Source of the DNA: Candidatus Woesearchaeota archaeon
Lineage (GTDB): Archaea; Nanobdellota; Nanobdellia; Woesearchaeales; ARS49
Direction of reading: 5' to 3'
Assembly (NCBI GenBank): GCA_019322895.1
Contig: JAHWHZ010000001.1
Location: 266,220 to 330,219 of the forward strand
DNA: 64,000 nucleotides
This document shows, one piece after another, positions 21,447 to 53,343 of the stretch (position 1 is the stretch's first letter; the number at the start of each line of letters is the position of its first letter). A program made the position numbers and the translations under genes. The notes beneath the pieces were generated by a model that was not told the DNA's origin, did no database searches, and saw only the letters and a program-made list of their open reading frames with translations.

Positions 21447-21537
21447 CAATGCCGCGCTACGTTTTGCTTTTAGAACCACTTGTTTATCAGATTCATCAGA
21501 TATCGCTTAGCCATTGAGGACTCCGCAGGCGGCATTG
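21447..21537. mobile_element. Family-2 91-bp element with perfect 9-bp terminal inverted repeats CAATGCCGC...GCGGCATTG (copy 1)
   Basis: Starts 2 nt after the preceding gene's stop. A second copy at 53251-53343 is in inverted orientation: copy 1's left 16 nt (CAATGCCGCGCTACGT) equals the reverse complement of copy 2's right 16 nt. Confidence 0.55.
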
Positions 21538-21596
21538 TTTAGAAAAACTTAAATAAAAGCTGTATTCTCATATTTTTGGGTGGTAATTTGGATAAG

Positions 21597-22223
21597 ATGG
21601 AGAAAGATGTTTTGGTTATTAGCAGAAAAATACTTTTTGATGCAGAAAAAGACAAGTTTCAGGGCTTTAAGGCTCATTCTGATATTGATTTCCACTCAAG
21701 GATTATCAAAGGATGCAAATACATGAAGAGAGGCATTGCTGAAGAAGACGAGACTCATAAGCAGCCTATTGGCTATGTCTTGATTGCCAATCCTAAGACA
21801 AAGAAAATATATGCCTACAAGCGCGCAAGCGCAGGCAAGGATTACACTGAAAAACGCCTGCAGAACAAATGGTCTGTCGGCATTGGCGGACACATAGACA
21901 GGACAGAAGAATCTGCTCAAGACCCTATCCACACAAGCATGCTGAGAGAGCTTTCTGAAGAAGTTAAAATAGGCCAATACTCACTAAAAGTCCTGGGATA
22001 TCTCAATGATGACAGTGATTCTGTCGGCAGGGTGCATTTTGGCATTGTTTATCTTGCCTTGACAGAATCAGATGTTTCCCCCGGCGATGCAGAATCTGTC
22101 TTTGGCGAGATGAAGACAATGGAAGAGATAAAACAGATAAGAAATTCTCCTGATGCTACTCTTGAAGGCTGGTCTGAGATTGCTATTGATTTTCTGGAGA
22201 AGAATTTGTCGGAGATAGTTTGA
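21597..22223 (+). CDS. Divergent Nudix-like hydrolase
   Basis: GIGGHIDRTEES...LRELSEEVKI resembles a Nudix box with a lengthened spacer. First ATG is at 21597. Confidence 0.4.
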   Translation: MEKDVLVISRKILFDAEKDKFQGFKAHSDIDFHSRIIKGCKYMKRGIAEEDETHKQPIGYVLIANPKTKKIYAYKRASAGKDYTEKRLQNKWSVGIGGHIDRTEESAQDPIHTSMLRELSEEVKIGQYSLKVLGYLNDDSDSVGRVHFGIVYLALTESDVSPGDAESVFGEMKTMEEIKQIRNSPDATLEGWSEIAIDFLEKNLSEIV

Positions 22224-22225
22224 TA

Positions 22226-22720
22226 TCATATACAGAATCGTTCACGAAGACATTCTTTTGCATCAGTATTTTCCATGCAATCAAAATATTCCTTTTGATA
22301 TATTTCCTGAGTAGGTGCATAATCTAAATTTTGAATTATTTGCAGGTATTCCTTATACAAACCGGTTGCATTTTCTTCTTGGTTTAATTCAAGGAACAAT
22401 AATGTTCTTGCTTGCAGATACTGAACTGGCCATGTATACGCAATGTATCCGGGTCTGTTAACTGCCAACTCACAAAGAATCAAAGCTTCTTCAAACTCAT
22501 CCGATGTACTGGCAGAACATGCTTTTTCTTGACATTGAGCTTGGTAGTTAATTGTTTTATGTTGAGTTTGTTCCAGTGCTTTTTCTGCTTCCTTGATAGT
22601 AGATTTAGGAACAGATTCTTCTGTAGTAGAATAAACTTTAGAGAACGGACTTGAAGTGCACCCTGCCACCAATAAAATAATGAATAGCAGTAAAACTGTT
22701 TTTGATGCCATGAAATTCAT
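22226..22720 (-). CDS. Secreted lipoprotein (Cys-containing)
   Basis: Signal peptide with lipobox LVAGCTSSP. 164 aa. Confidence 0.45.
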   Translation of the reverse strand: MNFMASKTVLLLFIILLVAGCTSSPFSKVYSTTEESVPKSTIKEAEKALEQTQHKTINYQAQCQEKACSASTSDEFEEALILCELAVNRPGYIAYTWPVQYLQARTLLFLELNQEENATGLYKEYLQIIQNLDYAPTQEIYQKEYFDCMENTDAKECLRERFCI

Positions 22721-22747
22721 TAATCCTGAATAGTTTATAAAACTTCA

Positions 22748-23497
22748 CTAAAAATTATCTAATCTGCTCTGCTTCTTGTTAAAATCTTCCAAATACTTTG
22801 GCGGCTTTACAGACACAAAAGTATATCCCCAGTCTGAAAGCATCTTGAATGCATTTGGAGTCATCTTTGGTGCTGCAATCATTCCCCTGACTTTTGTTAT
22901 TCCTTTGCTTACCATCAGTCTCTCAACATACCGCCTTAATTGAGTAACAGCACCCAAATCTGCGCAGTATCTTTTGCATTCAACAACAGTAAGCATTCCT
23001 TCTTTATCTATTCCAAGAACATCTATGAAGCCGTATTTTGTCTGCTCTTCTTGCGAGACTGGCTTGAATCCTTTTTCAATCATTTCAGGGTTTTCATAGA
23101 GCATGTTCGCCATATCTGCTTCTGTTCCAGATATGACTATTGATTTTCCATCCTCAAGCTTCTGCGAGTTAAAGAAGTGTATCCTGTTCATTGTTATGTC
23201 CATGTTTTCTTTCAATGCAAGATTTCTTGATTTCAGCATGAGTTTGCCTTCTTCTATTGCCATGCTATGGGTTGTGTTCGGCTTCATGTAGTTTACAGGA
23301 TTATTACCGGTTGGCTGGTGAACCAACAAAGCATTGTCTGCTTTTATTATCACTAATCTGTCGCCGTCTTTCAATAAACTCTCTGCTCTTCCAGAATATC
23401 TTATGCTGCAGTTGCAGCTGATTACAATCGTCTCGTTCCTTCTCAAGGCGTCATTCAATAATGTGACATAATCTTTTTGTTCTAGCATTTTATTCAC
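22748..23497 (-). CDS. nucS: Endonuclease NucS (EndoMS, mismatch-specific)
   Basis: N-terminal ssDNA-binding-like region and a C-terminal RecB-like nuclease core DVLGIDKEGMLTVVECKRY...QLRRY. Confidence 0.85.
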   Translation of the reverse strand: MNKMLEQKDYVTLLNDALRRNETIVISCNCSIRYSGRAESLLKDGDRLVIIKADNALLVHQPTGNNPVNYMKPNTTHSMAIEEGKLMLKSRNLALKENMDITMNRIHFFNSQKLEDGKSIVISGTEADMANMLYENPEMIEKGFKPVSQEEQTKYGFIDVLGIDKEGMLTVVECKRYCADLGAVTQLRRYVERLMVSKGITKVRGMIAAPKMTPNAFKMLSDWGYTFVSVKPPKYLEDFNKKQSRLDNF

Positions 23498-24047
23498 TTG
23501 GAAGATCTCTTTCAGATGTTATTTTATTGACATATTCTGTCACTATCTTTTTTGTAGGCGGCGATAATAGCAGTCTTCTTATTTTAAGTCCTGCTTTTTT
23601 TGCTTCTTCTATCCAGTGCTGGTCTCTTTGCTTGTTTATTGTTTCATAATCAAGCTCATACACCAGTTCTTTTATTCCTGCTGCAACAAGCAATTTAAGG
23701 CAAGTATAGCAGGGAAACAAGGTAACATACAAGGTTGAGCCGTGTATTCGTATTCCTTTGCGTGCTGCTCTTGCAATTGCATTGGCTTCTGCATGCACAT
23801 TCCTGGCATAATCGTTCTTCTCATGATCTGCCACATTCATGTGTCTTCTGAAGCACCTGCCCTCATCTGAGCAGTTTGGCATGCCTGGCATTGAGCCATT
23901 GTATCCTGTTGCCAGAACCTGCTTATCCATGACTATCACTGCTCCAGTTGGCCTTGACAAGCATGTTGACCTGGTGGCAGCCACTTTAGCAAGTATCATG
24001 AAGTACTCATCCCAGCTTGGTCTGTGCTTTGCACATGGAGTGTCCAT
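23490..24047 (-). CDS. dCMP/cytidine deaminase (zinc-dependent)
   Basis: HAEANAI and PCYTC zinc-binding motifs. Overlaps the nucS end by 8 nt, suggesting an operon. Confidence 0.8.
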   Translation of the reverse strand: MDTPCAKHRPSWDEYFMILAKVAATRSTCLSRPTGAVIVMDKQVLATGYNGSMPGMPNCSDEGRCFRRHMNVADHEKNDYARNVHAEANAIARAARKGIRIHGSTLYVTLFPCYTCLKLLVAAGIKELVYELDYETINKQRDQHWIEEAKKAGLKIRRLLLSPPTKKIVTEYVNKITSERDLPSE

Positions 24048-24154
24048 TTTATCCCCCTACTACTATGGAGTGCCTTTATTTATATTTATTTTCGTTCTGC
24101 AAAAGATATTACTGATAAAATAAAAGAATATAAAGGCCTGAATTCCTGAAAATC

Positions 24155-24793
24155 GTGATGAGAGGAATACTGATTAGTTTTGAGGCAGGAGAAGGTGCTG
24201 GCAAAGGCACTCAAGTCAGCTTATTAAAAGAATATTTAGAAAAAAAAGGTTTTAAAGTGCTTTTGACAAGAGAGCCAGGAGGACTGCCTCTTCCTGAAGC
24301 ATTAAGAAAAGAGGTTCAGCATCCAGACAAAGAGCACACTCCTGAAGGAGAGCTTTTATTGTTCTCTACTGCAAGATATCTGCATGCAAAAGACAAGATT
24401 AAGCCTGCTTTAGAAAAAGGAATGATTGTGATTACAGACCGTTTGCATGATTCTACAACTGTTTATCAGGGTTATGCTGGTGGAATAGATATTAATTTCA
24501 TTAAACAAGTTCATAAGGTAGCATTAGGAGATATAATGCCTGATTTGACCATATTCATTGATATTGATCCAGAACTGGGACTGAAGAAAATGACTACAAA
24601 TGAATTTGGAAAGCCTGACCGGATGGAAAGCAAAGGCCTTGAATTTCATAAGAAAGTTCGTGAAGGGTATTTAACACTCGCTAAACTAGAGCCAGATAGA
24701 ATAAAGGTAATCAAATACAGGGATGGTGATATTGAAGGCATGCAGAATGAGATAAGAGATTATGTTGATAAATTATTGGAAATCAAAGAATAG
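24155..24793 (+). CDS. tmk: Thymidylate kinase
   Basis: P-loop ISFEAGEGAGKGTQ and TREPGG motif. Confidence 0.85.
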   Translation: MMRGILISFEAGEGAGKGTQVSLLKEYLEKKGFKVLLTREPGGLPLPEALRKEVQHPDKEHTPEGELLLFSTARYLHAKDKIKPALEKGMIVITDRLHDSTTVYQGYAGGIDINFIKQVHKVALGDIMPDLTIFIDIDPELGLKKMTTNEFGKPDRMESKGLEFHKKVREGYLTLAKLEPDRIKVIKYRDGDIEGMQNEIRDYVDKLLEIKE

Positions 24794-24881
24794 TTTCGTC
24801 CATTTCTTCTTCAGCTTCATTCAGAAGCATAAAGTCTCCAAGCGGCCTGTTTTTCTTTGCTTCTTTATATCGTACTACCAT
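24783..24881 (-). CDS. Candidate 32-aa small ORF (MVVRYKEAKKNRPLGDFMLLNEAEEEMDETIL)
   Basis: Preceded on the minus strand by TATA tttatttaaatata, then SD GAGGTGA 7 nt before the ATG. I recognise no homology. Overlaps the tmk 3' end. Confidence 0.25.
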   Translation of the reverse strand: MVVRYKEAKKNRPLGDFMLLNEAEEEMDETIL

Positions 24882-25010
24882 TTTACTTCACCTCTTTTTA
24901 GAACACCCCTTTTGACACCTCTGTTTCTCCGCGCATTATTTTGTAAAACATAGCTTATATTTAAATAAATTGCAAATTAAAAATATAGTCCAAAGAATTG
25001 ATGTCACTAC

Positions 25011-25550
25011 TCAGCCAAAGTCAGCAAGTTTTTCCATAGAATGCTTGATTATTTTACCGTCGGCAGAATCTATTTTTATATTGACTGTTTTAAAGCTTTG
25101 AGTGACATATGTTATGTTAAATACTGTTGCTCCTTCAAGGTGCTGAATTATCAAGAAGTGCTTTAACAGTATCTCTTTAGGATAATTCTCCTTTATGCAG
25201 GCTTTTGCCTTTTCCAAGGCCTCGCTTACTGTTAATTTCACTTCTTCTGGTTTTAAAGGCATTATTTCCTGGCTTGCTTTCAGTATGTCCTGCGCAGGCA
25301 TTATCTCTATCTTGTTTCCTTGCTTGATGATTGTGTCTACTTTGTTGCTTTTCTTGTCATAGTATCCTATCTGCCACACATTATCTTCACTTGGCATCAC
25401 AAACACATGAGCAAGATAGAAATCTGGATGATCTTTTTTCCATTCCTTGAATTCAGGTGTTGCTTCAATCTCATCAATCAGTTTTTTGAATTCCATATAA
25501 TCAAAAAATAACCCAATCTTTTTAAACTTATCTTTAATCATCATATGCAT
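25011..25550 (-). CDS. Hypothetical protein
   Basis: ORF with no recognised motifs. Its likely ATG (25548-25550) lies inside the left terminal repeat of family-1 copy B. Confidence 0.45.
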   Translation of the reverse strand: MHMMIKDKFKKIGLFFDYMEFKKLIDEIEATPEFKEWKKDHPDFYLAHVFVMPSEDNVWQIGYYDKKSNKVDTIIKQGNKIEIMPAQDILKASQEIMPLKPEEVKLTVSEALEKAKACIKENYPKEILLKHFLIIQHLEGATVFNITYVTQSFKTVNIKIDSADGKIIKHSMEKLADFG

Positions 25551-25637
25551 AGCACCTGGCGTGCCTTTAAACAAATAAGAGAGATACATAGACTCGATTA
25601 TGCACGCGATAAAAACTTTAAGCAAAGCGTGCTATGC
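25547..25637. mobile_element. Family-1 91-bp terminal-inverted-repeat element (copy B), occupying a divergent promoter region
   Basis: Same termini as copy A. The start codons of both flanking divergent genes fall at or in the element ends (minus-gene ATG in the left terminal repeat; tyw1 ATG at 25638 immediately after the right terminal repeat). Confidence 0.6.
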
Positions 25638-26573
25638 ATGCAAATGTTTTCAGAACTTCGCAAAAAGGAGCTTGAAAAGCAGGGTTACAGGCTTGTTGGC
25701 AGGCATAGTGCTATAAAGATATGCAGCTGGTGCAAGAAATCAATAAGAGGGGAGGATGTCTGCTATAAGAATACATTCTATGGCATCAATTCATGGCGCT
25801 GCATCCAGATGTCTCCGTGGTTTGCCTGCACTCACAGATGCATTTTCTGCTGGCGGGATGTCCGGGAAAATCTTGTTCCTGAAGAGATTGACAGCCCGAA
25901 AGATATTGTTGATGGCTGCATTAAGGCTCAAAAAGAGATTTTGCAGGGCTTTGGAGGAAATGAAAAGCGCGACCAAAAGCATTTTGAAGAAGCTTTAGAG
26001 CCTCTGCATTTCGCAATCTCATTAACAGGAGAGCCCACACTATATCCAAAACTTCCAGAGCTTGTTGATGAGATAAAATCTAGAGGCATGACTTCTTTTA
26101 TTGTGACAAATGGGACTGTTCCTGAGATGCTGAAGAAATTAATCAATCATCAGCCCACGCAGTTGTATATGACTCTTCCTGCTCCGGATAAAGAGACTTA
26201 TCTTAAGACCTGCAATCCCTTAAACCAAGATTCTTGGAACAAGATTCAGGAATCTTTAAGCCTGATTAAGGAATTCAAGAGAAGCTGTTTAAGATTGACT
26301 TTAGTTAAAGGATATAATATGGTCAATCCAGAAGGTTATGCAGATTTGATTAAAAAAGCAAATCCTGCATTTATTGAGCTAAAGGCATATATGTGGGTTG
26401 GCCACTCAAGGGAAAGACTAGAGATTGAAAACATGCCTCTGCATCCAGAGATTGTTGAGTTTGCAAAGAAAGTGGCAAAAGCTGCTGATATGAAAATCAT
26501 TGATGAAAAGCCTGAAAGCAGAGTTGTATTATTGATGAAAGAAGACAGAAAAGACAGGATTATGGAGTTCTGA
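25638..26573 (+). CDS. taw1: tRNA 4-demethylwyosine synthase Tyw1/Taw1 (radical SAM)
   Basis: Radical-SAM cluster CTHRCIFCWR and a second Cys cluster upstream (CSWCKK). Start re-set to ATG 25638; the track ORF begins inside the element. Confidence 0.85.
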   Translation: MQMFSELRKKELEKQGYRLVGRHSAIKICSWCKKSIRGEDVCYKNTFYGINSWRCIQMSPWFACTHRCIFCWRDVRENLVPEEIDSPKDIVDGCIKAQKEILQGFGGNEKRDQKHFEEALEPLHFAISLTGEPTLYPKLPELVDEIKSRGMTSFIVTNGTVPEMLKKLINHQPTQLYMTLPAPDKETYLKTCNPLNQDSWNKIQESLSLIKEFKRSCLRLTLVKGYNMVNPEGYADLIKKANPAFIELKAYMWVGHSRERLEIENMPLHPEIVEFAKKVAKAADMKIIDEKPESRVVLLMKEDRKDRIMEF

Positions 26574-27864
26574 ATAATTTCTTGATGCCGCTTACAGTGT
26601 GCCCTATGCCTTGTATTGGGTGTATTGTAGCAAGCTCATGCAGTATATGGCCTATTTTCTGTTTTTTCTTTATTCTTGGCTCCTTGATTGAGAACATGAA
26701 TAAGGCAGAAGCTGCTCTCAGCAATGCAGAGATTATGAATATCAAAGGTATTCCCGAAAGTATGAAAACTGCCTTGTCTGCCACAAAGCCTCCTGCAATT
26801 GGCGCGATTATCAGAGGAATTGATGTGAGCATCACATATTTTGCAACTTTTACTGTCCTATGCTGATGCGAGAAGTCAAGCAACAGGTTGAATGTGCTTA
26901 TTTCCACACCTGCCCAGAATATGCCTGAGACAATCTGCGCGACAAAAATCAGCCAGATTGTCTGCGGCGTCACAAAAAAGAAAAGGATTGGCACAAGCGC
27001 AACTCCAAACATGCTCACTATTGCAACTGGCCTGTCTCCTATCTTGTCAGAAACTTTTCCAAAATGCGGGTGTGCCAGTATCTTGCAAAGGCCTGCGACT
27101 GCAAAAGAGATCATCATCAGCGTGTAGCTTATGTGGATATTTTTCAGCATGTATACTATGAAGAAAGGAGATGCAAACATGAAAGCAAAGTTAAAGAATA
27201 TTATGATGTATATGAATCTCCTGAACTGTCCTTTTATCTTGAAAAATTCTGTTATCTTGTGCTTTTTGTGGTCTGTATAAGGCAGCTCTTTCATCCTGCA
27301 GTAATAATAAGAAGACCAAAGGCCGAATAATATACCCACTAAAAACATGGTTGAAAAGCCGACATAGCTTGTCTTGGGAAAAAGGTCGAGGTACATTGCG
27401 CCGAATACACTTACAGTCAAGCTTGCAATTCCCATGAACATATTTCTTTTTCCAAAGTACTTTCCCCTGTGCTCAATTGGAACAATCTCTCCTGCAAAAG
27501 AGGTCCATGCAGGATTAGTGAGCCATTCTGTAAATTGCACAAGGAAAAAATAAATCAATAATGTCAGCAATGGGTGATTCATGAAAAAAACAGGAATCAG
27601 GATTATCGGAAGCCAGAGCAGGCGCGACGTAACAGTCAATACTACATTTATGTGCAGTCTTGAGTAAAGCTCAACAAGTTTTGCTCCAGGCACCTGCGCA
27701 AGAATCGCTGCAAGGTAAGGAAGCGCCCCTGCAATCCCGATAATTGTGTTTGATGCGCCCAAAGCAAGTGCAAAAGCTATCAAGAATGCGCTTGTAAGGC
27801 CGTAGTACAATGCCCACAGCACGCTTTGATATATCAATAATCTCTGGTTTTTTGTTATTCTCAT
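26560..27864 (-). CDS. MFS-family transporter
   Basis: 434 aa with about 12 predicted TM helices and MFS-like loop spacing. Confidence 0.7.
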   Translation of the reverse strand: MRITKNQRLLIYQSVLWALYYGLTSAFLIAFALALGASNTIIGIAGALPYLAAILAQVPGAKLVELYSRLHINVVLTVTSRLLWLPIILIPVFFMNHPLLTLLIYFFLVQFTEWLTNPAWTSFAGEIVPIEHRGKYFGKRNMFMGIASLTVSVFGAMYLDLFPKTSYVGFSTMFLVGILFGLWSSYYYCRMKELPYTDHKKHKITEFFKIKGQFRRFIYIIIFFNFAFMFASPFFIVYMLKNIHISYTLMMISFAVAGLCKILAHPHFGKVSDKIGDRPVAIVSMFGVALVPILFFFVTPQTIWLIFVAQIVSGIFWAGVEISTFNLLLDFSHQHRTVKVAKYVMLTSIPLIIAPIAGGFVADKAVFILSGIPLIFIISALLRAASALFMFSIKEPRIKKKQKIGHILHELATIHPIQGIGHTVSGIKKLFRTP

Positions 27865-28493
27865 ATTTTTATTATCTTGCCTAATGGCCCTGGATTAATC
27901 AGCAAAGCATTGTTCAGCTTGTCTTTTTTTCCTGCATTTTCATGAAGGTGCCCGCATATTTCAAGAACAATATTAGGATTTGACTTTATGAATTTTGTTA
28001 TTGTCTTGTTTCCGCAGTATTCTTTTCCTATTCTGTCAAGCTTTGTCTTGTAAGGAGGGGCATGCGTCACAAGAACTACTTTTTTTCCTTTTATTTTTGG
28101 CTTTATTTTCTTTATGAACTTTTCCATTTCCTTGTCCTGCCGCAAAAAGCTTTCTCCTGTAAAGCCTACAAAAACATAATCCCCTATTTTTATTGCTTTT
28201 TTGTTCAAAAAAATAAGGCTGTCATGAAAAGAGCATATTTTTCTCATCACAGAGTCTGTCTCGTGGTTTCCTGGTATAATTAGTACTTTCTTGCCAATCT
28301 TGCTTATTCTTTTCATCAGCTCTTCCAGGTGATTTTCAAACAAAGAGACATCACCTGCGCAAACGATTACATCTGGCTTTGTTTTTTTTGCTTTTTCTTT
28401 CAGTCTTTTGATGTATTTCAGGCTTTGATAGAAATCAACATATTCTGGTGATCTTGGTCTTGAGTGAAGGTCTACAAAAGCAAGAATTTTCAT
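27861..28493 (-). CDS. Calcineurin-like metallophosphoesterase
   Basis: MKILAFVDLHS, DVIVCAGDVS, IIPGNHE and GHLHE motifs. Start re-set to ATG (MKILAF). Confidence 0.75.
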   Translation of the reverse strand: MKILAFVDLHSRPRSPEYVDFYQSLKYIKRLKEKAKKTKPDVIVCAGDVSLFENHLEELMKRISKIGKKVLIIPGNHETDSVMRKICSFHDSLIFLNKKAIKIGDYVFVGFTGESFLRQDKEMEKFIKKIKPKIKGKKVVLVTHAPPYKTKLDRIGKEYCGNKTITKFIKSNPNIVLEICGHLHENAGKKDKLNNALLINPGPLGKIIKI

Positions 28494-28497
28494 GGAA

Positions 28498-29730: not shown

Positions 29731-29739
29731 ATTTTCACC

Positions 29740-44852: not shown

Positions 44853-47285
44853 TTATTCTTCATTCAGCCATTTCATAACAGGCTTTCTTAGAATAAGAAT
44901 TGCTATCAATACAATCAATAATATCACGCCGACAAGAACATATTTCAAATATCCGACATATTCCTTAGGAAACAATGTTTTCTTGACTACCAGTCTTACT
45001 GGATTGCTTTGTATCTCCCCGCCTTTGCCGTCTGAGGCTGTGAATGTTATTGTTCTCTGGCCAGACCATAAATAATCTGGCATGAAGTATGCAGTGCCGT
45101 CTTTTACCCACACATTTATGTTAGTGACATCATTAAATGTGAATTCAAGAGTGTCTCCATCAGGATCATTGAAGTATTTCTTTAAGTCAAGGCTGTGCTG
45201 TGTATCTTGGTCCCACATCTGCGCAGGTATTCCTTTGACATGTATTGGAGAATCTGCAACTAATATTGCTGTGATTCCTCCGCCGATTACAGCGAGTATT
45301 ATCAGGGCAAGCACTGCTATCCAGTATGGCTTGTATCTTTCTTTTGCACTTGTTTTTCCGACGATTGCAAACTGTCCAAAGCAGTCTGTGGTTGTCTTGT
45401 AATAGACATATTTGCTGTCAGCGCCTTCTCTTATTGTTTTCAGCTTGGTGTAGCTGCCACTTTTCAATAATGCCAATGCAATGTCATTTTCTTTTACTTC
45501 TCTTTTCTTGAGCCATCTCTTGCTGACCTTGAACCTGTATCTGCTTTCTTTCACGTCAATATCCTGCACAGAGGATTTTATCCTGAAATATTTGTATACA
45601 AAGTCTTTTGGATGCACGTATTTGGCATGCCTTGTTCTCCCTTGTTTTGCCGTGACTTTGACTCTTTTTGCAGGCGAATCCAGCTTAAAGCTCAGTTGAT
45701 GCAGGCCTTTTCTCCAGTTGATATTCATCAAGAGCATTTCATTTGCCAGTACCAATCCTCTCCAGCGGGCAGTTACTTTTTTCAGCCTTGTCAGCCTGTT
45801 CAGTACGAAAAGTACAGCCAAGATAACCAGGCCAATTAATACATAGTATTTATTTGCCCACAACAAGATTCTTAATTTGATAACTACAAGTATTACTATT
45901 AATATAATAAAGAACATAACAAGATTGAACACCCATCTTGTTGATATTTTTCTTTTGCCTTCTATGATGTCTTGTTTTGAGATCAGTTCATATTCTGATT
46001 TTATCTGCTTGTCATATTTCTGCACAGCTTTTTCACGCGCTTTATTGAGCTCTTTTTCTTTTTTCTGCTTTGCTTTCTCTTTTTCTGCCTTTATTTTCTC
46101 TTTCTGTTTTCGCAATTCTTCTTTTTTCTTTGCACGCTCTCTTTTTCTTTTTGCTCTTGCAAGCTTTGCTTCCTCGCTTGTCAATCTATTGACAACAAAA
46201 TATATCCCGATTACCAAAAGAATAAACAAGATTATTCCGCCGATTGTGTAAACAAGGTATTCGGAGAATAATTTGCCTAATACTGTCGGGCTTTTTAATT
46301 TTATTACAATCTCTTTTGAGAATTTTGCCTTATCCTGGTCTGTCAAGGTTATTTTTACTGGATAATCTCCCTTGTCCAGCCCTTGCAAAGGCTTGATGAA
46401 TAGTATGAAATCCTGACTGTCTTTTGCTTCTATGTCCAGCAGTGTCGTGCTTGCTGTTATCCAGCTTGGGCCGTCTATATCTACTGTATACTGCTTTGCT
46501 TCATCATATGTATTGAATACTTTCAGCTCTGCTGCGCTTTCTTCCAAAAGGTTTGTCTTTATTGAGTTTACTCCTTCTGCAATTACAGGCACTCCTGTGT
46601 CTTTTATCTCTAATTGAAGGTCCATCTCTGCTATTGTTCCTGTTTTTTCAGCAGCTGCTGTAAATACTATATTGTAATTTCCAATTTTCTCGCAGTTCTT
46701 TGGGTTTATCTCAACTGTTATGTCTTTTGAAGAGTTTGCTTGGAGAGTTATTTTGTCTTGGCTAAAGGTTGCTTCATTCTTGAAGTTGTTAACCGTGAAA
46801 GAATATGTTTCTGTGAATGATTCTGGATTAACTATTGTCAGATTATATAGCGCGCTCTGGCATGGCGCGATTGATTGTGAGAAGACATTTGCGATAATAT
46901 CGACATTAAGTGGCTTTTTGACTGTTATGTCCTGCAAAATCACTTTCTCAAGCCCGTAGGATGTCAAAATATAGATATCAAGCGTGTAATCATCATATGC
47001 ATCGCATGGTGCTGTCAAGAAGCTCTGCACATCCATGGACTGGCCTGGAGCAAGTTTAAAGCTTGCTGGCGCAAATTGTATCCATTCTGCTGCTGTGCCG
47101 TCAACCTCAAGGTAATATGTACTCTCAATATCTCCTGTATTTGTTATTGTTATAGGAAACTTATGCGTGGTGCACTGGTATGTCTTTATTATTACAGAGC
47201 CAAATGCCTCAAAATCTTCCTGCTGAGCATTTGCTGTAGTTAAAATCAGAATGAAAATCAATAATATGAGCAGCAGTTTTTTCAT
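44853..47285 (-). CDS. Large secreted/membrane surface protein (810 aa) with a K/E-rich coiled segment
   Basis: Signal peptide, beta-rich N-terminal domains, internal TM helices flanking a lysine-rich helical stretch, and a C-terminal TM helix. Confidence 0.45.
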   Translation of the reverse strand: MKKLLLILLIFILILTTANAQQEDFEAFGSVIIKTYQCTTHKFPITITNTGDIESTYYLEVDGTAAEWIQFAPASFKLAPGQSMDVQSFLTAPCDAYDDYTLDIYILTSYGLEKVILQDITVKKPLNVDIIANVFSQSIAPCQSALYNLTIVNPESFTETYSFTVNNFKNEATFSQDKITLQANSSKDITVEINPKNCEKIGNYNIVFTAAAEKTGTIAEMDLQLEIKDTGVPVIAEGVNSIKTNLLEESAAELKVFNTYDEAKQYTVDIDGPSWITASTTLLDIEAKDSQDFILFIKPLQGLDKGDYPVKITLTDQDKAKFSKEIVIKLKSPTVLGKLFSEYLVYTIGGIILFILLVIGIYFVVNRLTSEEAKLARAKRKRERAKKKEELRKQKEKIKAEKEKAKQKKEKELNKAREKAVQKYDKQIKSEYELISKQDIIEGKRKISTRWVFNLVMFFIILIVILVVIKLRILLWANKYYVLIGLVILAVLFVLNRLTRLKKVTARWRGLVLANEMLLMNINWRKGLHQLSFKLDSPAKRVKVTAKQGRTRHAKYVHPKDFVYKYFRIKSSVQDIDVKESRYRFKVSKRWLKKREVKENDIALALLKSGSYTKLKTIREGADSKYVYYKTTTDCFGQFAIVGKTSAKERYKPYWIAVLALIILAVIGGGITAILVADSPIHVKGIPAQMWDQDTQHSLDLKKYFNDPDGDTLEFTFNDVTNINVWVKDGTAYFMPDYLWSGQRTITFTASDGKGGEIQSNPVRLVVKKTLFPKEYVGYLKYVLVGVILLIVLIAILILRKPVMKWLNEE

Positions 47286-47341
47286 TTTATATAGTCCCCT
47301 GTGAGATAAGTTTTAGGTAAATGGAGAAAAAGAAAAAAAAT

Positions 47342-48604
47342 TTAATAGTACTCTTCTGCCTGCAGGTCATCGTCAAAATCATCTGAGTCATTGCCTCTTA
47401 GCTTGCTTATGCCGACTATTAGGCCGATGATGACCAACAATACTACAAGTACGATAAAAATCACTTCTAGAACCTTCTTAAGGGTGTTGCTAGGAGCTTT
47501 TGTTATGTTTGCTGTCAATGCTACCTGCTCTAGCTGCTCTCCGCTTGAGCTTACTGTTGCAGTCAGCACTTGTGCACCCTGTGGTGCTTTCTCGCCAGCT
47601 TCAACAAATACGTATAAGCTCTGTGTTTTTCCGCCCTCTAGCACGATTGTGCTTGAAGGTGATATGCGGACATTTGCCCACTCTTGAGCATCTACTGTCA
47701 ATGTGTAGCTCTTGCTTTCCCTTCCTGAGTTTGTGATTGTTATTGGGTATATTGCGCTTTCTCCTTGTTCAAAGCTTTCCATCTGTGAACCGATTGTTAT
47801 TGTTGTTTTCGGCTTGTCATTTGCTGTGCACAATGGATTCTCTGTAACTTGGATTGTCTTGGTTATTTTCTCTGAATAATGTTTCTCTGAGAAGTAAACC
47901 ATCACTTCAACATCGTATAATCCAGGCTCTGCGCACTGAGGAATTCTCAAGAAGATCTCTTCTGTCTCTTCCTCGTCATCATCTTCTTCAATCTCATTGA
48001 TGTATTCTGTTGCGCTTACTCCTAGATTTGGGATTGTTATCTTGACTTTTACGTCATCTTCCTGCATTTCTCCCTTGTTTTCTATCCTTACGCTTGCCAG
48101 CAAAGCAGATCCTGCTTTTACTGAGCTTTCTGGGTAGAATACAACGTCGTCAATCCTTAGGCTGTGCCTTGGAACGTCAATTTTCAGGTTGTAGCTTTGG
48201 ATAAGCTCTTCATGGTCCCTGTTTGTCAGGAGAACTCTTAGTTTGTAATCATCTTTCTCAAATTCATCTGAGATAGGTATGCTGAATTCAAGTTTGTATT
48301 GAGTGTTAGCTTGAAGGTTTTTTGGTCCTACTATGTCTGATGCTCTTTCCCATTTATTGTACTCAAAGCCAGACAAGAACACTTCTGCTTCTACATCATC
48401 AATATCTTCTTCTGCTGTTACTAATACCTCAACATCAATGGTCTGTCCTCTTTCAATGTCAAGTCGTGTTACCCTGTCAGGTGCCAGGCTGACATCATCA
48501 ACCTCGATTTCGTCTATAGCAACTGGCAAGGATGCTGCATGTACAACTCCTGCAATTGCTATGACCATCAACATTGCGAGTAATATTATCTTCAATGCTT
48601 TCAT
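47342..48604 (-). CDS. Secreted surface protein with C-terminal TM anchor and acidic tail (S-layer-like candidate)
   Basis: Signal peptide, acidic beta-rich repeats, and a C-terminal hydrophobic helix followed by DSDDFDDD. Confidence 0.45.
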   Translation of the reverse strand: MKALKIILLAMLMVIAIAGVVHAASLPVAIDEIEVDDVSLAPDRVTRLDIERGQTIDVEVLVTAEEDIDDVEAEVFLSGFEYNKWERASDIVGPKNLQANTQYKLEFSIPISDEFEKDDYKLRVLLTNRDHEELIQSYNLKIDVPRHSLRIDDVVFYPESSVKAGSALLASVRIENKGEMQEDDVKVKITIPNLGVSATEYINEIEEDDDEEETEEIFLRIPQCAEPGLYDVEVMVYFSEKHYSEKITKTIQVTENPLCTANDKPKTTITIGSQMESFEQGESAIYPITITNSGRESKSYTLTVDAQEWANVRISPSSTIVLEGGKTQSLYVFVEAGEKAPQGAQVLTATVSSSGEQLEQVALTANITKAPSNTLKKVLEVIFIVLVVLLVIIGLIVGISKLRGNDSDDFDDDLQAEEYY

Positions 48605-48670
48605 TTTTCAACCCCCTAACCAACTTTTTTTCAATAATTGTTGGTGATATATAAAGTTTTCGGTTCGTAA

Positions 48671-49813
48671 CTATTCTAGAGTAGGTACGATATCAATGTC
48701 ACGGTAAACGACCCTTCTCGTCTGGCCGTTGCTTGTAATTGTGAATCTCAGGAAATAATTTCCCTCTGGAGTGCCATATGGAATATCAAAAAGCAAGGTC
48801 TTGGTTACATCATCTCCTCTGCTAAGGTCAAATGGCCCTGCGCTGGCTCTCATGCCTAATTCCTGGCTTACAACAGCGATTTTTACGTCTTCCAGACTTT
48901 CTGTGCCGTCATTTTCAATGCCTATTGTAAGGAATAATGGCTCTCCGCTGACAGTCTGCATAGGGAATCTTGTTGATAACACCTTTATTCCGATTGTTTC
49001 AATTGGTGCTTCATCTTCATCATCGTCTTGTGCTGCATCAAGTCTTACAGTAGTGTATGCTGTCTCGCTTGTTGCTTTTTCACCGTGTATTGGATCATGA
49101 TAAGATATAGATACTACTCCTGTTATTGTCTGGCCGTCTTTTGCATCGTCATCAACTGTTGTTCTTATAACAATTGTGTCTCCTGTTCTTGCAGGCACTT
49201 CTTCAATGCGCCATCTGTAGTTTCCTGTTGTTGCATCTGGCTCTGAAGAATCAATCTGTGCATCTGAGTCTGCATCAAATGTTATGATTACATCGCTTGC
49301 AGTTCCTGTGCCTTCATTATAATAATTAATAGTGTATACCAGCTCATCTCCTGGCTCTACTGGGTCAGGACTGTCGCTGATTGATATGTCTATTGTGGCC
49401 TGAAATACCTCATCTAATGGAGGAATCTCGTCAGTAGGAGGGATTTCTGGGTCTGGTGTTGAATCAAAAGGACTGTCGTTTTTGTCGTCATCTTTTTCAT
49501 CTTCTTCCTCTTCGTCATCTTCATCTATTGTTTCTTTATCCTCTCCTATGCCGCCGCCATCTCCTTCATTTGGCATACTGTCAGCATCGCCCAGATTAGG
49601 CATCTGGTCAACATCGCCCAAATTAGGCATCATATTTGCATCTCCTAGATTAGGCATTACGTTAACATCACCAATATTTGGCATCAAATCAACATCACCG
49701 ACATTAGGCATTTCATCTGCGATTATGAATGGTAAGAATAGTAATGCTGCAATTATTAGAATTGATAAGAACGGCAGGTTTTTGGTTATGAATGTTTTCA
49801 TTATTTTTGGCAC
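48671..49813 (-). CDS. Secreted acidic protein with six tandem 9-aa MPN[VIL]GD repeats
   Basis: Signal peptide, then MPNVGDVDL MPNIGDVNV MPNLGDANM MPNLGDVDQ MPNLGDADS MPNEGDGGG, then a D/E-rich linker and a beta-rich domain. Confidence 0.45.
   Translation of the reverse strand: MPKIMKTFITKNLPFLSILIIAALLFLPFIIADEMPNVGDVDLMPNIGDVNVMPNLGDANMMPNLGDVDQMPNLGDADSMPNEGDGGGIGEDKETIDEDDEEEEDEKDDDKNDSPFDSTPDPEIPPTDEIPPLDEVFQATIDISISDSPDPVEPGDELVYTINYYNEGTGTASDVIITFDADSDAQIDSSEPDATTGNYRWRIEEVPARTGDTIVIRTTVDDDAKDGQTITGVVSISYHDPIHGEKATSETAYTTVRLDAAQDDDEDEAPIETIGIKVLSTRFPMQTVSGEPLFLTIGIENDGTESLEDVKIAVVSQELGMRASAGPFDLSRGDDVTKTLLFDIPYGTPEGNYFLRFTITSNGQTRRVVYRDIDIVPTLE
49550..49711 (-). repeat. 6 x 27-nt in-frame tandem repeat encoding the MPNxGDxxx units
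   Basis: Periodic ..attaggcat..gtcaacatcgcc.. units are visible on the + strand. Confidence 0.7.
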
Positions 49814-49845
49814 CTTTGTTTTTTAAGAGAGAAAAAAATAAAAAA

Positions 49846-50766
49846 TTATTTTACTACTTCCAGGATTGGTTTGCCGGCTTTGTCAAACTTCGGCTTTCCT
49901 TCCTTATCTCTGACAATCTTGAATTTCTTGCCATTGATTTTAATGATGTCCTTGCCCTTTTTCTGCTCTTCTTTCTTCTTTTCAGGAACTTTTAAAGCAT
50001 CAATAGCCTTCTTCTGAGCTTCTGGAAGCTTGTAGTCTTCTTTGCCTTCTTTTGTCAGGCCGAAAGCAGTCCTGATGTACTCGTGGTTTTCTTTCTTTCC
50101 ATCATTGTATCTGCTGTGTACTGCAAGAGACCATCTGTCAAAGCCTTTCTGGTGCCTTATTAATGCATTCCATACATCTTTTGGCACTTCAACATACCAT
50201 GAATCCCATGCTTTATTATCTACATCATCTTTAGCAAGATTCATTATGTTCTTGGCTTCTTTCTGTATCCTGCTCAAGAAGTTTGCTCTTATTCTTGTCT
50301 TCTCATAAGCAGTCTTTGCTGTTGTAGTTCCTTCTCTGCCGTAGTTTTTTCCAACTGCAGTATCAAAGACTTTTTCATCCAAGCCAGTCTCTACTTTGTC
50401 AATATTTCTTTCCTGATCTGTTGGGGTTAATCCACTTGCATATCCCCATACCTTGAATTTTCCTTTTCCTGTGAAAAAAGAATCAATTACAGTTTTGTAC
50501 AGGTCCCGCATTTTAATTAGATCTTCACCTGTCTCTCCTGCTCTGATTTTCTTGTCAATCCTTAGATAAGCAGTGCCGATTGCACTAAGCTCTTCAATAT
50601 TAAGCTTGCCGTCTTTTGATACTTTCTTGATTTGTTTAGCAGAATTTCTTGCAAGGTTTGTTGCATCTTTAATCTCTTTTTGCTGGCAGCCTCCTAAAAA
50701 TGTGTATCCTAAAACTGCTGCACCAGCTACCTGCAAACCTGTTTTCAAACCGTCATATGCTTTCAT
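49846..50766 (-). CDS. Hypothetical secreted or lipid-anchored protein with lysine-rich C-terminus
   Basis: N-terminal hydrophobic segment with LGGCQQ and a K-rich C-terminal tail. Confidence 0.4.
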   Translation of the reverse strand: MKAYDGLKTGLQVAGAAVLGYTFLGGCQQKEIKDATNLARNSAKQIKKVSKDGKLNIEELSAIGTAYLRIDKKIRAGETGEDLIKMRDLYKTVIDSFFTGKGKFKVWGYASGLTPTDQERNIDKVETGLDEKVFDTAVGKNYGREGTTTAKTAYEKTRIRANFLSRIQKEAKNIMNLAKDDVDNKAWDSWYVEVPKDVWNALIRHQKGFDRWSLAVHSRYNDGKKENHEYIRTAFGLTKEGKEDYKLPEAQKKAIDALKVPEKKKEEQKKGKDIIKINGKKFKIVRDKEGKPKFDKAGKPILEVVK

Positions 50767-50858
50767 TTTCTTGTCCCCCCGATTTATTTGTTAATCTTAA
50801 GTGTCAACATCTTTGTTTCACTCAAAAGTGACAGTAATATTTAAAGGTTTTGGTGAAC

Positions 50859-51989
50859 TTAATCATCTGAGCCGATTATGTCGCTGAGATATGTCTGGAT
50901 TGAAAATCCTGTATTCCACTGCGGCCTGCCCCATTTATCATGGTCTCCCTGCCAGGTGCATTCTAACCATCCTGTCAGGTAAAATCCTCTTCCAAGGTCA
51001 AGCTTCATTTTCAAAAGCGCGCCATATGCGTTGTGCTCATCTGCAGATACGCCAACAGAGTCTGAAATTTTCTTCTTGGCAACGAATTCTAGTGAGCCCG
51101 CAAGGTTTCTTTCCATCAGTTTTGTTCTGGCTTCTAGTCCGCCTGATACAACATATGTGTTTAATTTTGCAAGATTCTCAAAATGTGCATAGTTTGCACT
51201 GCCATTTAGTAGCGCAAACACATTATCTGTTATTCCTTGAAGAACATAGGCTGTTCCTACCAAATTGCTGTAATCTCCCTCTACTGGAATCTTGTCAACA
51301 CCCATTGATCCTTTGTATCTGTCTACTCCTTTGATTCCAAGCAGTTCGCATGGGCTTCCCATCAGGCTTGCTGCTGCAAGGGTGTTTGTAGGTTCTGATG
51401 CAAAAGATACTTTTGCACCAAGCAAGACATCTCCTGCATACAAGTCAATGGAGCCGTCATAATTCAGCCATTCATATCCTGCCTTTGCTTCTATGTATGC
51501 AAGCAGGTTCTTGTTGCCTATGTGCCATCCAAATCCGCCGACAAGTTTAGATAAGTCCCCGTAACAATTTCTGTCTTCCTGATTTTGGATGTCTGCTCTC
51601 ATCACTTGGTATAAGTTTCTGAAGTCAAGTGTAAGCCTTCCTTCATTCTCTTCTCCAATTTTTGCAAGAAGTTTTGATTGGATATTATAAAGGTCTAAAG
51701 CTTGGTGATGGCCTTGCCAGTTTCCTCCGGTGCTTATACAGGACCATAGATTAATATCTGTGCTGTTATTGATTTTATAGAACCAGCCTGTGTCAAAGTC
51801 TAGATCTGATTTCTTGGTTTTCTTGCTCTTTTTAGATTCTTCTTCTTTCTCTACTTTTTCAACTGTTTCATCATCGTCCATGAAATTCTCAAGCCTTAAA
51901 TCATCCCTGTCTTCTGCGCTTGCAGTTCTGGCAAGCAAAGCTATAAGTGCTGCTGTTGGAATTGTTAAAAGATATCTTTTGAAACTCAT
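50859..51989 (-). CDS. Secreted beta-rich protein (beta-barrel-like alternating pattern)
   Basis: Clear signal peptide (ALLARTASA) and an acidic linker. Amphipathic beta-strand-like alternation (YEWLNYDGSIDLYAGDVLLGAKVSFA...) ending ...TGFSIQTYL. Confidence 0.4.
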   Translation of the reverse strand: MSFKRYLLTIPTAALIALLARTASAEDRDDLRLENFMDDDETVEKVEKEEESKKSKKTKKSDLDFDTGWFYKINNSTDINLWSCISTGGNWQGHHQALDLYNIQSKLLAKIGEENEGRLTLDFRNLYQVMRADIQNQEDRNCYGDLSKLVGGFGWHIGNKNLLAYIEAKAGYEWLNYDGSIDLYAGDVLLGAKVSFASEPTNTLAAASLMGSPCELLGIKGVDRYKGSMGVDKIPVEGDYSNLVGTAYVLQGITDNVFALLNGSANYAHFENLAKLNTYVVSGGLEARTKLMERNLAGSLEFVAKKKISDSVGVSADEHNAYGALLKMKLDLGRGFYLTGWLECTWQGDHDKWGRPQWNTGFSIQTYLSDIIGSDD

Positions 51990-52148
51990 TTTTAGTGTTC
52001 CCCCCCAACTAAGTTCAGTATATGATAATGATTTAGAATTCTAGAAATTAGCTTACTATTTAAAGGTTTCGCTTTGTTGCTATCGCAGAGTAGCAAACAA
52101 ACGCTTGTTTTCATTAAGCTTAAATAAGAGTTTAGAATTACCTGCTTC

Positions 52149-53228
52149 ATGATTTCAATTATCGGCGCAGGGCCTTCTGGATGCTTTCTTGCATATAAGC
52201 TTGCAAAAGCAGGTTTTGAAGTCAGTATTTTTGAAGAGCATGAAAAAGCAGGCCTGCCTGTGCAATGCACTGGCCTCGTAACTCCAAACCTGTTTAACCT
52301 AGTCCCATTAAAGAAATCATTTATTGTCAACAAGTTCAATTCAGTCAAGGTCATTGCACCAAACAATATTTCTGCTGAAATAAGAGTGCAGGAATACCTG
52401 CTTGACAGGAAAAAATTTGATAATTACTTTCTTGAAAAAGCACTGAATGCTGGCGCTAAAATCCATCTGAATCATAGGTTCTTGACAAAATCAGGGCAGC
52501 ATGCAGTCTTACAAAACAAGAATAAAATCAAGAAAATAAAGACAAAAATTCTTATAGGCGCAGACGGCCCATTAAGCCAGGTTGCAAAAACCGCAAATCT
52601 TTACGGCAAGCGGGAATTCTTTATCGGCATGCAGGCAACTGTGCAGGCAGACTTCAGCAAAAACACATACCAAACATTCTTTGGCAACATTGCGCCTGGC
52701 TTTTTTGCATGGATTGTTCCAGAATCCAGCACAAAAGCAAGAATAGGTCTGGCAACAAGAAAAAACACAAGGCATTATTTTGAGAATTTCCTGAAAAACA
52801 AAGGAAAAGTGATTGAAAAGCAGGCAGGCACCATCCCAATATATAATGGCAAAGCAGCTCAAAAAAAGAACACATATCTCATCGGCGACGCAGCAACTTT
52901 CTGCAAGGCAACTACTGGGGGAGGCCTTGTTCCTGGCCTGCAGTCTGCAAAAATACTGTCAGATTGTATAATCAACAAGAATAATTATGAATCTTCTTTA
53001 AAGAAATTAAGAAGACAGTTGTGGCTGCATACTTTGCTTAGATCCACACTAGACAGATTTAACACGCGGGATTACAATGAGTTAGTCAAGCAGATAAGTA
53101 ATCCAAGAATAAAGCAGCAGTTGTCAAGCAATAACAGGGATTCTCCAATAACACTCCTGCCAAAACTTTTGCTGGCAGAGCCGAAATTACTTTATTTTAG
53201 CAAGTGTCTGCTGCAAAAAAAGGTTTAA
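52149..53228 (+). CDS. Geranylgeranyl reductase-family FAD-dependent oxidoreductase
   Basis: FAD-binding IIGAGPSGCFLAYKLAKAG..FEE and VQCTGLV motifs. Confidence 0.7.
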   Translation: MISIIGAGPSGCFLAYKLAKAGFEVSIFEEHEKAGLPVQCTGLVTPNLFNLVPLKKSFIVNKFNSVKVIAPNNISAEIRVQEYLLDRKKFDNYFLEKALNAGAKIHLNHRFLTKSGQHAVLQNKNKIKKIKTKILIGADGPLSQVAKTANLYGKREFFIGMQATVQADFSKNTYQTFFGNIAPGFFAWIVPESSTKARIGLATRKNTRHYFENFLKNKGKVIEKQAGTIPIYNGKAAQKKNTYLIGDAATFCKATTGGGLVPGLQSAKILSDCIINKNNYESSLKKLRRQLWLHTLLRSTLDRFNTRDYNELVKQISNPRIKQQLSSNNRDSPITLLPKLLLAEPKLLYFSKCLLQKKV

Positions 53229-53250
53229 CTTCCATCTGCTGCGTTGTGAC

Positions 53251-53343
53251 CAATGCCGCATGGCGAAGTTTTTGACTTCATATGCAATTACACATAAATC
53301 TGAGGCACAGGCAGTTTCATAACCAAGACGTAGCGCGGCATTG
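53251..53343. mobile_element. Family-2 93-bp terminal-inverted-repeat element (copy 2), inverted relative to copy 1
   Basis: CAATGCCGC...GCGGCATTG termini. Located between the GGR gene stop and the aglB promoter. Confidence 0.55.

What the first reader, a model, noticed from the sequence alone, without database searches (positions are those of the whole stretch)
21447..53343. Second family of ~91-93-bp terminal-inverted-repeat elements (CAATGCCGC...GCGGCATTG), two copies in inverted orientation 31.7 kb apart
Copy 1 (21447-21537) and copy 2 (53251-53343) have perfect 9-bp terminal repeats. Copy 1's left 16 nt equals the reverse complement of copy 2's right 16 nt, so they are the same element inserted in opposite orientations. 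Both lie immediately after a stop codon and ahead of a promoter. Size and architecture match family 1 (about 91 nt, 9-bp repeats), which suggests two related MITE-like families mobilised by the same unseen transposase, or a family of structured intergenic RNAs.
Basis: seen in the sequence. Interest (0 to 1): 0.7.

Follow-up and report, generated by a model that had tools for sequence, protein, structure and literature searches.

The report
Archaeal miniature transposon (MITE) copies
The two ~92-base inverted-repeat elements are real and, with two sister copies nearby, are small non-autonomous transposons that inserted into this Woesearchaeota chromosome, one of them clipping the end of a lipid-reductase gene. 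This is an ordinary kind of element, though the family has some odd features.

Summary
CAATGCCGC/GCGGCATTG occurs only at 21447-21537 and 53251-53343 (0.31 expected by chance), and the two copies are inverted relative to each other. The MITE reading is supported and the structured-RNA reading is not.

The window is a Candidatus Woesearchaeota (DPANN) chromosome. About 60 related copies were found in metagenome contigs, a Nanoarchaeota single-cell genome and a MAG labelled Methanosarcinales. Many carry 9-bp target-site duplications.

Copy 2 is a 153-bp element (53221-53373) flanked by TGCAAAAAA/TTCAAAAAA. A relative holds the same site empty, and removing the element in silico restores the conserved C-terminus of the geranylgeranyl-reductase gene.

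Family 1 behaves the same way. Copy 25547-25637 is missing from empty sites in two relatives. Copy 19351-19440 has an 8/9 duplication and survives only as a deletion remnant in another relative.

No Rfam family matches, and only the terminal stem is conserved as structure. No transposase was found. Nine-bp duplications and GGT-starting outer arms hint weakly at an IS1-like enzyme.

One feature is unusual: the terminal arms differ in sequence between members but stay complementary, while the adjacent GCT and CGC-NAG boxes stay fixed.

Verdict: a new member or subfamily of a known kind, of modest interest.

The parts
21447..21537 (+). Family 2 copy 1. This is a bare core of 91 nt with 9-bp arms CAATGCCGC/GCGGCATTG. 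The 'GCT' orientation is on the + strand. A direct repeat TTTAG lies at 21440-21444 and 21538-21542.
   Evidence: No outer arms and no 9-bp duplication were found. The relative L167 carries a different family member in the opposite orientation at this same site.
53221..53373 (-). Family 2 copy 2. This is a full 153-bp element: outer arm 53221-53250, core 53251-53343, outer arm 53344-53373. The 'GCT' orientation is on the - strand.
   Evidence: The empty site in relative L166 aligns continuously across the insertion point. Excision restores the conserved protein end QKRKLFK. The right-hand arm resembles the outer arm of the L144 element by eye (flank listings; no alignment score was computed).
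53212..53220 (.). Left target-site duplication of copy 2, TGCAAAAAA.
   Evidence: The 9-mer is present once in L166.
53374..53382 (.). Right target-site duplication of copy 2, TTCAAAAAA (8 of 9 identical to the left copy).
19351..19440 (-). Family 1 copy 1. This is a bare core with arms GCATAGCAC/GTGCTATG(C). It is flanked by CTTATTTAA (19342-19350) and CTTCTTTAA (19441-19449), which match at 8 of 9 positions.
   Evidence: (D7). L167 keeps only a deletion remnant at the orthologous site.
25547..25637 (-). Family 1 copy 2. This is a bare core with arms GCATAGCAC/GTGCTATGC. It is an insertion of about 95 bp relative to two relatives.
   Evidence: (D7). Empty sites are seen in L168 and L170. The duplication is degenerate.

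Best explanation
The two elements, and the two 'family 1' elements at 19351-19440 and 25547-25637, are copies of a non-autonomous DNA transposon (MITE) family of archaea. Each copy has a core of about 91-98 bp. The core is bounded by perfectly complementary 9-12-bp arms, with GCT immediately inside the 5' arm and CGC-NAG immediately inside the 3' arm. Some members also carry 20-30-bp outer arms starting with GGT.

Shown: insertion duplicates 9 bp of target, usually A/T-rich and often ending in TTTAG or TTTAA. Such targets are common around stop codons and promoters, which explains where the copies sit.

Inferred: a transposase encoded elsewhere binds the arms, cuts the target with a 9-bp stagger and pastes the element in. 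An IS1-like, IS256/Mutator-like or IS4-like DDE enzyme is the best guess. Arms stay intact because only copies with two matching arms propagate.

In this genome the copies are lineage-specific insertions. One replaced the last six codons of the geranylgeranyl-reductase-family gene with two codons and a stop of its own.
For: 1. The family is large. A pattern scan of metagenomes gave 40 loci, about 36 of them genuine low-GC archaeal contigs. A genome scan gave one copy in a Nanoarchaeota single-cell genome and three in one MAG labelled Methanosarcinales. A profile search found 61 copies with E below 1e-3 in the held loci, including tandem and divergent ones.

2. Nine-bp duplications flank many members. 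They are exact in L139 (ATTCTTTAG), L153 (AAATTTAGA), L162 (GAAGAAACA) and L072 (TTTAATAAA). They are 8 of 9 in L161, L163, L158 and L167. Over 48 elements, 3 were exact and 13 had at most one mismatch, against 0 and 4 in displaced controls.

3. Window copy 2 has an 8/9 duplication. The relative L166 has the uninterrupted site with the 9-mer once. Excision in silico turns the gene end ...LLQKKV* into ...LLQKRKLFK, matching QKRKFFK* in the relative.

4. Window family 1 copy 2 is absent from otherwise alignable intergenic DNA in L168 and L170.

5. Family 1 copy 1 has an 8/9 duplication and is reduced to a remnant in L167.

6. Roughly 75 kb of syntenic DNA from five relatives holds one copy, against four in the 64-kb window.

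7. Orientation relative to neighbouring genes is mixed.

8. A published survey reports very high MITE density in a Woesearchaeal genome (PMC11602168).
Against: No autonomous element or transposase with matching ends was found in the window or in any held locus. No match was found in plasmid or phage collections or in viral contigs.

Copy 1 (21447-21537) has no 9-bp duplication, only TTTAG on both sides, and no empty site was found for it. The relative L167 has a different family member at the same place.

The outermost nucleotides differ between bare cores and long forms. The arm sequence varies widely between members while the boxes just inside stay invariant. That is the reverse of what is usual for transposase-recognised ends.

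The resemblance of the outer arms to E. coli IS1 ends is weak. The best case was reached by 6 of 2000 shuffles, uncorrected for 16 comparisons.
Confidence: 0.82

Rival explanations
1. The elements are a family of small structured non-coding RNA genes. The terminal helix closes the RNA, the conserved junction boxes and central motif bind a protein, and the variable segments act as guides.
For: The terminal helix is never broken in 44 members, and 7 of its 9 pairs show double compensatory changes. The arm sequence varies (CAATGCCGC, CAATGGTGC, GCATAGCAC, ACATAGCGC, AACGCTGCCGC, GCAGCACCACCAC) while the neighbouring GCT and CGC-NAG boxes are fixed. Core length stays within 91-98 nt despite near-saturated interior divergence. 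Among non-Watson-Crick pairs in stem extensions, T.G occurs 7 times and A.C, C.A and G.T never occur. In the methanogen-type copies both junction boxes read GCGAGC on one strand, which could form tandem G.A pairs (read directly from the sequences).
Against: No Rfam family matches at the gathering threshold or the permissive threshold. RNAalifold finds no conserved structure inside the terminal stem. Fold z-scores are modest, -1.05 to -3.7, and largely due to the stem. No promoter was noted upstream of the copies by eye in the flanking sequences printed; only a bacterial-type consensus scan was run, so archaeal promoters were not tested. Many copies have runs of 5-7 T inside the core on the 'GCT' strand, which would stop archaeal RNA polymerase. 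Copies are absent from orthologous sites in relatives and carry target duplications. The T.G cases mostly share one inherited position, so they are not independent.
Confidence: 0.08
2. The elements are hairpin-defined mobile modules recognised by shape rather than sequence, as integron attC sites or REP elements are. They would be moved by a recombinase or structure-specific nuclease rather than a classical end-binding DDE transposase.
For: Complementarity of the arms is conserved but their sequence is not. Element ends coincide with the base of the stem whether it is 9 bp or about 36 bp long. Two different family members in opposite orientations occupy the same site in the window and in L167, which resembles cassette replacement.
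Against: Consistent 9-bp target duplications are the signature of staggered cuts by DDE transposases. They are not produced by tyrosine recombinases or HUH enzymes (established knowledge). The attC consensus ends (RYYYAAC...GTTRRRY) are absent. The neighbours are syntenic housekeeping genes, not cassettes.
Confidence: 0.07
3. The elements are chance palindromes or host regulatory hairpins (terminators or insulators) that belong to the promoter or terminator regions.
For: They lie between genes next to stop codons and A/T-rich promoter-like DNA.
Against: Word counts are far above chance. The consensus scan found no more terminator-like sites than shuffles did. Copies are absent at orthologous sites in relatives, whereas the adjacent promoter-like sequence is conserved. 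Homologous copies occur in unrelated contexts in other phyla.
Confidence: 0.02

Closest known systems
Prokaryotic MITEs in general, for example the Sulfolobus SM1-SM4 elements and the MITE catalogue of PMC11602168, which reports about 105 MITEs/Mb in a Woesearchaeal genome
   Same: They are short and non-coding, with terminal inverted repeats and target-site duplications. They are intergenic and multi-copy, show presence/absence between relatives, and encode no transposase.
   Different: The arm sequence is not conserved across this family, only its complementarity. The invariant positions are the boxes just inside the arms. Core length is held at 91-98 bp. Whether this exact family is in that catalogue was not checked.
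IS1 family insertion sequences (E. coli IS1A read here as locus L171)
   Same: Both give 8-9-bp target duplications. In both, the ends begin with GGT. The motif ..CAACTTA.. and ..TTTAGTGT.. is shared between the IS1 left end and some outer arms.
   Different: The similarity is weak and seen in only some members. The window's bare cores have no GGT ends. No IS1-type transposase was found near any copy.
Modular bacterial repeats such as pneumococcal BOX elements (boxA-boxB(n)-boxC), from general knowledge
   Same: Related contigs carry 1-3 tandem core units enclosed by a single pair of outer arms.
   Different: The hosts are archaea, there is no sequence relation, and clear 9-bp duplications are present. 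The window's own copies have single cores.
Mutator/Foldback and IS256-type elements, from general knowledge
   Same: They give 9-bp target duplications and have long, poorly conserved terminal inverted repeats.
   Different: No transposase was seen, and the comparison rests on duplication length and arm behaviour only.

Membership tests
MITE (non-autonomous DNA transposon) | Short, with no coding capacity | tested here: met
   The cores are 91-98 bp and the full forms 145-361 bp. They lie between annotated or conserved genes.
MITE (non-autonomous DNA transposon) | Terminal inverted repeats | tested here: met
   The window has perfect 9-11-bp arms. Relatives have arms up to about 36 bp.
MITE (non-autonomous DNA transposon) | Target-site duplication of fixed length | tested here: met
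   The duplication is 9 bp. It is exact in L139, L153, L162 and L072. It is 8 of 9 in window copy 2, family 1 copy 1, L158, L161, L163 and L167. It was not seen for copy 1 (21447) and is degenerate for 25547.
MITE (non-autonomous DNA transposon) | Insertion polymorphism, meaning empty sites in relatives | tested here: met
   L166 is empty for copy 2. L168 and L170 are empty for 25547-25637. No empty site was available for copy 1.
MITE (non-autonomous DNA transposon) | Many dispersed copies | tested here: met
   There are four copies in 64 kb and 61 profile hits across 44 archaeal loci. The genome-wide copy number in the source genome was not obtained.
MITE (non-autonomous DNA transposon) | A cognate autonomous element with the same ends | tested here: not met
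   A search of all held archaeal loci for 0.5-3.5-kb inverted-repeat pairs with 9-bp duplications found none that were relevant. The public collections could not be scanned again for this.
IS1-family derivative | 8-9-bp duplication and ends beginning GGT... | tested here: inconclusive
   This is met by the long forms (GGTGCAG.., GGTTAAG..). It is not met by the bare cores in the window.
IS1-family derivative | End sequence similar to IS1 inverted repeats | tested here: inconclusive
   The best local alignments were reached by 6 of 2000 and 30 of 2000 shuffles, among 16 comparisons.
IS1-family derivative | An IS1-type transposase (InsAB') in the same genomes | not tested
Known structured RNA family (Rfam) | Match to a covariance model | tested here: not met
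   There were no hits at gathering score in the window and only chance-level hits at E up to 10.
Structured RNA gene in general | Conserved internal secondary structure with covariation | tested here: not met
   Only the 9-bp terminal helix is predicted in 44 sequences.
Box C/D sRNA | C (RUGAUGA) and D (CUGA) boxes next to the terminal stem | tested here: not met
   The junction sequences are GCU and CGC-NAG. A CUGAUGA occurs only in copy 1 and is not conserved.
tRNA or split tRNA | Cloverleaf with a T-loop | tested here: not met
   ARAGORN finds none, and no T-arm or D-arm pattern was seen on inspection.
Integron attC site | R''/R' boxes RYYYAAC...GTTRRRY and a cassette context | tested here: not met
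   The ends are CAATGCCGC/GCGGCATTG, and the neighbours are syntenic housekeeping genes.

The most novel reading that the evidence does not exclude
The family is mobilised by recognition of hairpin or cruciform shape together with the invariant GCT and CGC-NAG junction boxes, not by arm sequence. Element ends would then be set by the base of the stem, whatever its length (9-36 bp), while a 9-bp stagger is still made in the target. A related point is that identical 12-nt ends in Woesearchaeota, another Nanoarchaeota lineage and a Methanosarcinales-labelled MAG could mark DNA exchange between DPANN episymbionts and methanogen hosts.
Probability: 0.1. Interest if true: 0.7.

Novelty: new member of a known kind. 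Interest (0 to 1): 0.35.

Why it matters
The result gives a concrete, well-delimited MITE family for DPANN archaea, whose mobile elements are barely characterised. It also shows direct effects on genes: a rewritten gene end and borrowed stop codons.

The family offers a marker for recent insertion activity and for possible DNA exchange between Woesearchaeota and other archaea in the same sediments.

The combination of sequence-variable but always complementary arms with invariant inner boxes is a small puzzle about how the unknown transposase recognises its substrate.

For genome annotation, these repeats should be masked as mobile DNA and not called as RNA genes or regulatory hairpins.

Tried and rejected
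- **tRNA, split tRNA or tRNA-Sec.** The 9-bp stem and ~92-nt length suggested it, and the central motifs can be read as Leu anticodons. ARAGORN found none and there is no D-arm or T-arm. Rejected.
- **Box C/D or H/ACA sRNA, K-turn.** The boxes are absent or not conserved. Rejected.
- **Rfam.** Nothing was found at either threshold.
- **Integron attC, REP/BIME, CRISPR-like mini-array, TIGR-like or bridge-RNA-like guides.** These were considered because of tandem units and variable segments. They were rejected on the ends, the genomic context and the 9-bp duplications.
- **Genome-collection scan with a 20-base pattern.** It was swamped by chance hits in GC-rich bacteria, and only 4 useful loci came out of it.
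- **Outer arms or 9-bp duplications around copy 1 and the family 1 copies.** None were found for copy 1.
- **Search for an autonomous element.** This covered long inverted-repeat pairs in the held loci, plasmid and phage BLAST and three viral-contig scans (checked in 81). Nothing was found.
- **Extension of the source genome beyond the window.** Only about 8 kb was obtained and it held no further copies.
- **IS1 literature for a table of ends and duplication lengths.** It was not found in the searchable library, so those properties rest on general knowledge plus the E. coli IS1 copy read.
Full report
**Observation**

The sequence is as described. CAATGCCGC and its complement occur only at 21447/21529 and 53251/53335. 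That is 4 matches against 0.31 expected, and no shuffle reached 4. The words bound a 91-nt and a 93-nt element.

Copy 1 on the + strand and copy 2 on the - strand share their first 16 nt. They are 72% alike over 67 nt, which is the longest inverted repeat in the window.

It has GCATAGCAC/GTGCTATGC arms at 19351-19441 and 25547-25637, with 4 matches against 0.47 expected. Both copies lie on the same strand and are 79% identical (D7).

**Host**

The window encodes XPD, topoisomerase IA, PolX, AglB/STT3, NucS, TFS and a wyosine-synthesis radical-SAM enzyme. Its proteins are named Candidatus Woesearchaeota in NCBI and sit on a 705-kb contig. This is a DPANN archaeal chromosome with about 38% G+C.

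**Not a known RNA**

Rfam gives nothing at gathering scores for the whole window. It gives only chance-level hits at permissive thresholds around the elements and around a homologue. ARAGORN finds no tRNA. Fold energies are only modestly better than shuffles, with z from -1.05 to -3.7, and the terminal stem accounts for most of that.

**The family elsewhere**

A pattern scan of species-representative genomes was mostly noise from GC-rich bacteria. It did return a 98-nt copy in a Nanoarchaeota single-cell genome (L072, 50% G+C inside a 28% G+C contig). It also returned three copies on three contigs of one MAG labelled Methanosarcinales.

A tighter pattern on metagenome contigs returned 40 loci, about 36 of them genuine. 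Many come from the same sediment project as the window.

All copies share these features:
- a length of 91-98 nt;
- the 5' end CAATGCCGC followed by GCT;
- a central motif: TTTGCCCAACTGC, TTTTCCGAGAATA or CTCAGATTTAT, depending on the subgroup;
- a 3' end CGC-NAG followed by GCGGCATTG.

A profile built from them finds 61 copies with E below 1e-3 in the held archaeal loci. These include members whose arms have quite different sequences: AACGCTGCCGC, CAATGGTGC, CTGGAATGCCGC and GCAGCACCACCAC. The arms are nevertheless still complementary.

**Evidence of transposition in the family**

In the sediment contigs the core is wrapped in outer arms, GGTGCAGTCAACT...AGTTGACTGCACC. The whole unit of 145-361 bp is flanked by 9-bp direct repeats:
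- ATTCTTTAG (L139), AAATTTAGA (L153) and GAAGAAACA (L162) are exact.
- L161, L163 and L158 match at 8 of 9 positions.

The Nanoarchaeota copy has no outer arms and is flanked by an exact TTTAATAAA.

Across 48 elements, 3 exact and 13 near-exact duplications were found. Controls with a displaced flank gave 0 and 4. Some units contain two or three tandem cores within a single pair of outer arms.

**Evidence of transposition in the window**

*Copy 2.* The 9-mers TGCAAAAAA (53212-53220) and TTCAAAAAA (53374-53382) flank a 153-bp unit. The relative L166 has 68% identity in the upstream reductase and the same neighbouring genes. It reads straight through the site with the 9-mer present once, and both window flanks align to it.

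Removing 53221-53382 in silico changes the reductase end from ...KCLLQKKV* to ...KCLLQKRKLFK. This matches ...KCLLQKRKFFK* in that relative and KKKVF-type ends in the others. The element therefore landed in the last codons of the gene and now supplies its stop codon.

*Family 1 copy 2.* Two relatives, L168 and L170 (NucS 85% identical), align on both sides of a 95-nt gap exactly where the element sits.

*Family 1 copy 1.* CTTATTTAA and CTTCTTTAA abut the arms. The closest relative, L167 (NucS 89% identical), keeps only a short remnant. That remnant is consistent with deletion between the two GCGTGC repeats of the element.

*Copy 1.* No empty site was found. L167 carries a family 1-type element in the opposite orientation at the same place. 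Its arms are ACATAGCGC/GCGCTATGT and it has its own TCTATTTAA/TCTATTTAG duplication. The window copy is flanked only by TTTAG on each side. The same A/T-rich target was therefore hit twice, or one element replaced another.

About 75 kb of syntenic DNA from five relatives contains one copy in total, against four in this 64-kb window. This points to a lineage-specific burst.

**RNA alternative**

RNAalifold on 44 members predicts only the 9-bp terminal helix. That helix is never broken, and 7 of its 9 pairs show double changes. For a transposon this is expected, because the two arms are copies of one binding site.

The arm sequence does change freely between members, however, while the GCT and CGC-NAG boxes just inside are invariant. 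T.G is the only transition-type mismatch seen in stem extensions, 7 times against 0 for the other three types. These points keep a structural constraint in play.

They are outweighed by four things:
- the target duplications and empty sites;
- runs of T inside many cores;
- the lack of a promoter at a fixed distance;
- the lack of any conserved inner fold.

**Which transposase**

None was found. A 9-bp duplication fits IS1, IS4 or IS256/Mutator-type enzymes, from general knowledge.

The outer arms begin with GGT and share ..CAACTTA.. and ..TTTAGTGT.. with the left end of E. coli IS1. That IS1 copy was read directly from an annotated record and has its own 8-9-bp duplication. The similarity is weak: the best cases were reached by 6 and 30 of 2000 shuffles among 16 comparisons. 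This is a lead, not a result.

**Relation of the two families**

Families 1 and 2 share length, the stem-GCT and CGC-CAG-stem junctions, and a central C-GAG. A profile built without family 1 does not recover the window's family 1 copies. It gives only E = 0.06 for the one in L167. A common origin is therefore likely but unproven.

**Known or new**

MITEs are well known, including in archaea. A recent survey lists a Woesearchaeal genome among the archaea with the densest MITE load (PMC11602168). This family is a new or at least undescribed member of that kind. It has three mildly unusual traits: variable but complementary arms, a fixed core length, and optional outer arms. It also appears to span more than one archaeal phylum.

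**Verdict**

- Observation: confirmed.
- MITE interpretation: supported.
- RNA interpretation: not supported.
- Interest: modest.

Noticed in passing
window 53212-53228 and 52149-53228: The geranylgeranyl-reductase-family gene ends in two codons and a TAA supplied by the inserted element. The displaced original end (AAAACTTTTTAAGTGC...) survives downstream at 53383 onward, with its stop codon mutated from TAG to TGC.
   Followed up: yes
window 19342-19449: Both convergent genes end at family 1 copy 1. The stop of the NMD3-like gene (reverse complement of 19436-19438) lies inside the right arm. The stop of the DUF7343 gene (19348-19350) lies in the target duplication.
   Followed up: partly
window 19351-19440 compared with L168 12277-14583 and L170 12616-14916: Relatives have a DUF460 gene between NMD3 and DUF7343. 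The window and L167 lack it, and the element or its remnant sits at that junction.
   Followed up: no
window 53228-53432 compared with L164 11095-12143: One relative (L164) has an epimerase gene between the reductase and STT3. The window and L166 do not.
   Followed up: no
window 49558-49719: There are six tandem copies of a 27-nt (9-codon) unit inside the ORF 48671-49813 on the minus strand, which is probably a repetitive surface protein.
   Followed up: no
window 1-64000: ARAGORN found no tRNA gene in 64 kb of a small archaeal genome. Intron-containing or split tRNAs would be missed by this setting.
   Followed up: no
L135, L147 and L162 (for example L162 923-1281): Some composite elements carry an extra segment of about 110 nt in the first core unit, with a GC-rich hairpin ATGGCCCAAAAAGGGCCAC. 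Its origin is unknown.
   Followed up: no
L107 6107-6314 and L035 554-749: In the MAG labelled Methanosarcinales, two family members with different arms sit back to back in opposite orientation, about 17-30 nt apart.
   Followed up: partly
L171 901-1009: In this E. coli record the 33-bp left end of IS1 is tandemly duplicated.
   Followed up: no
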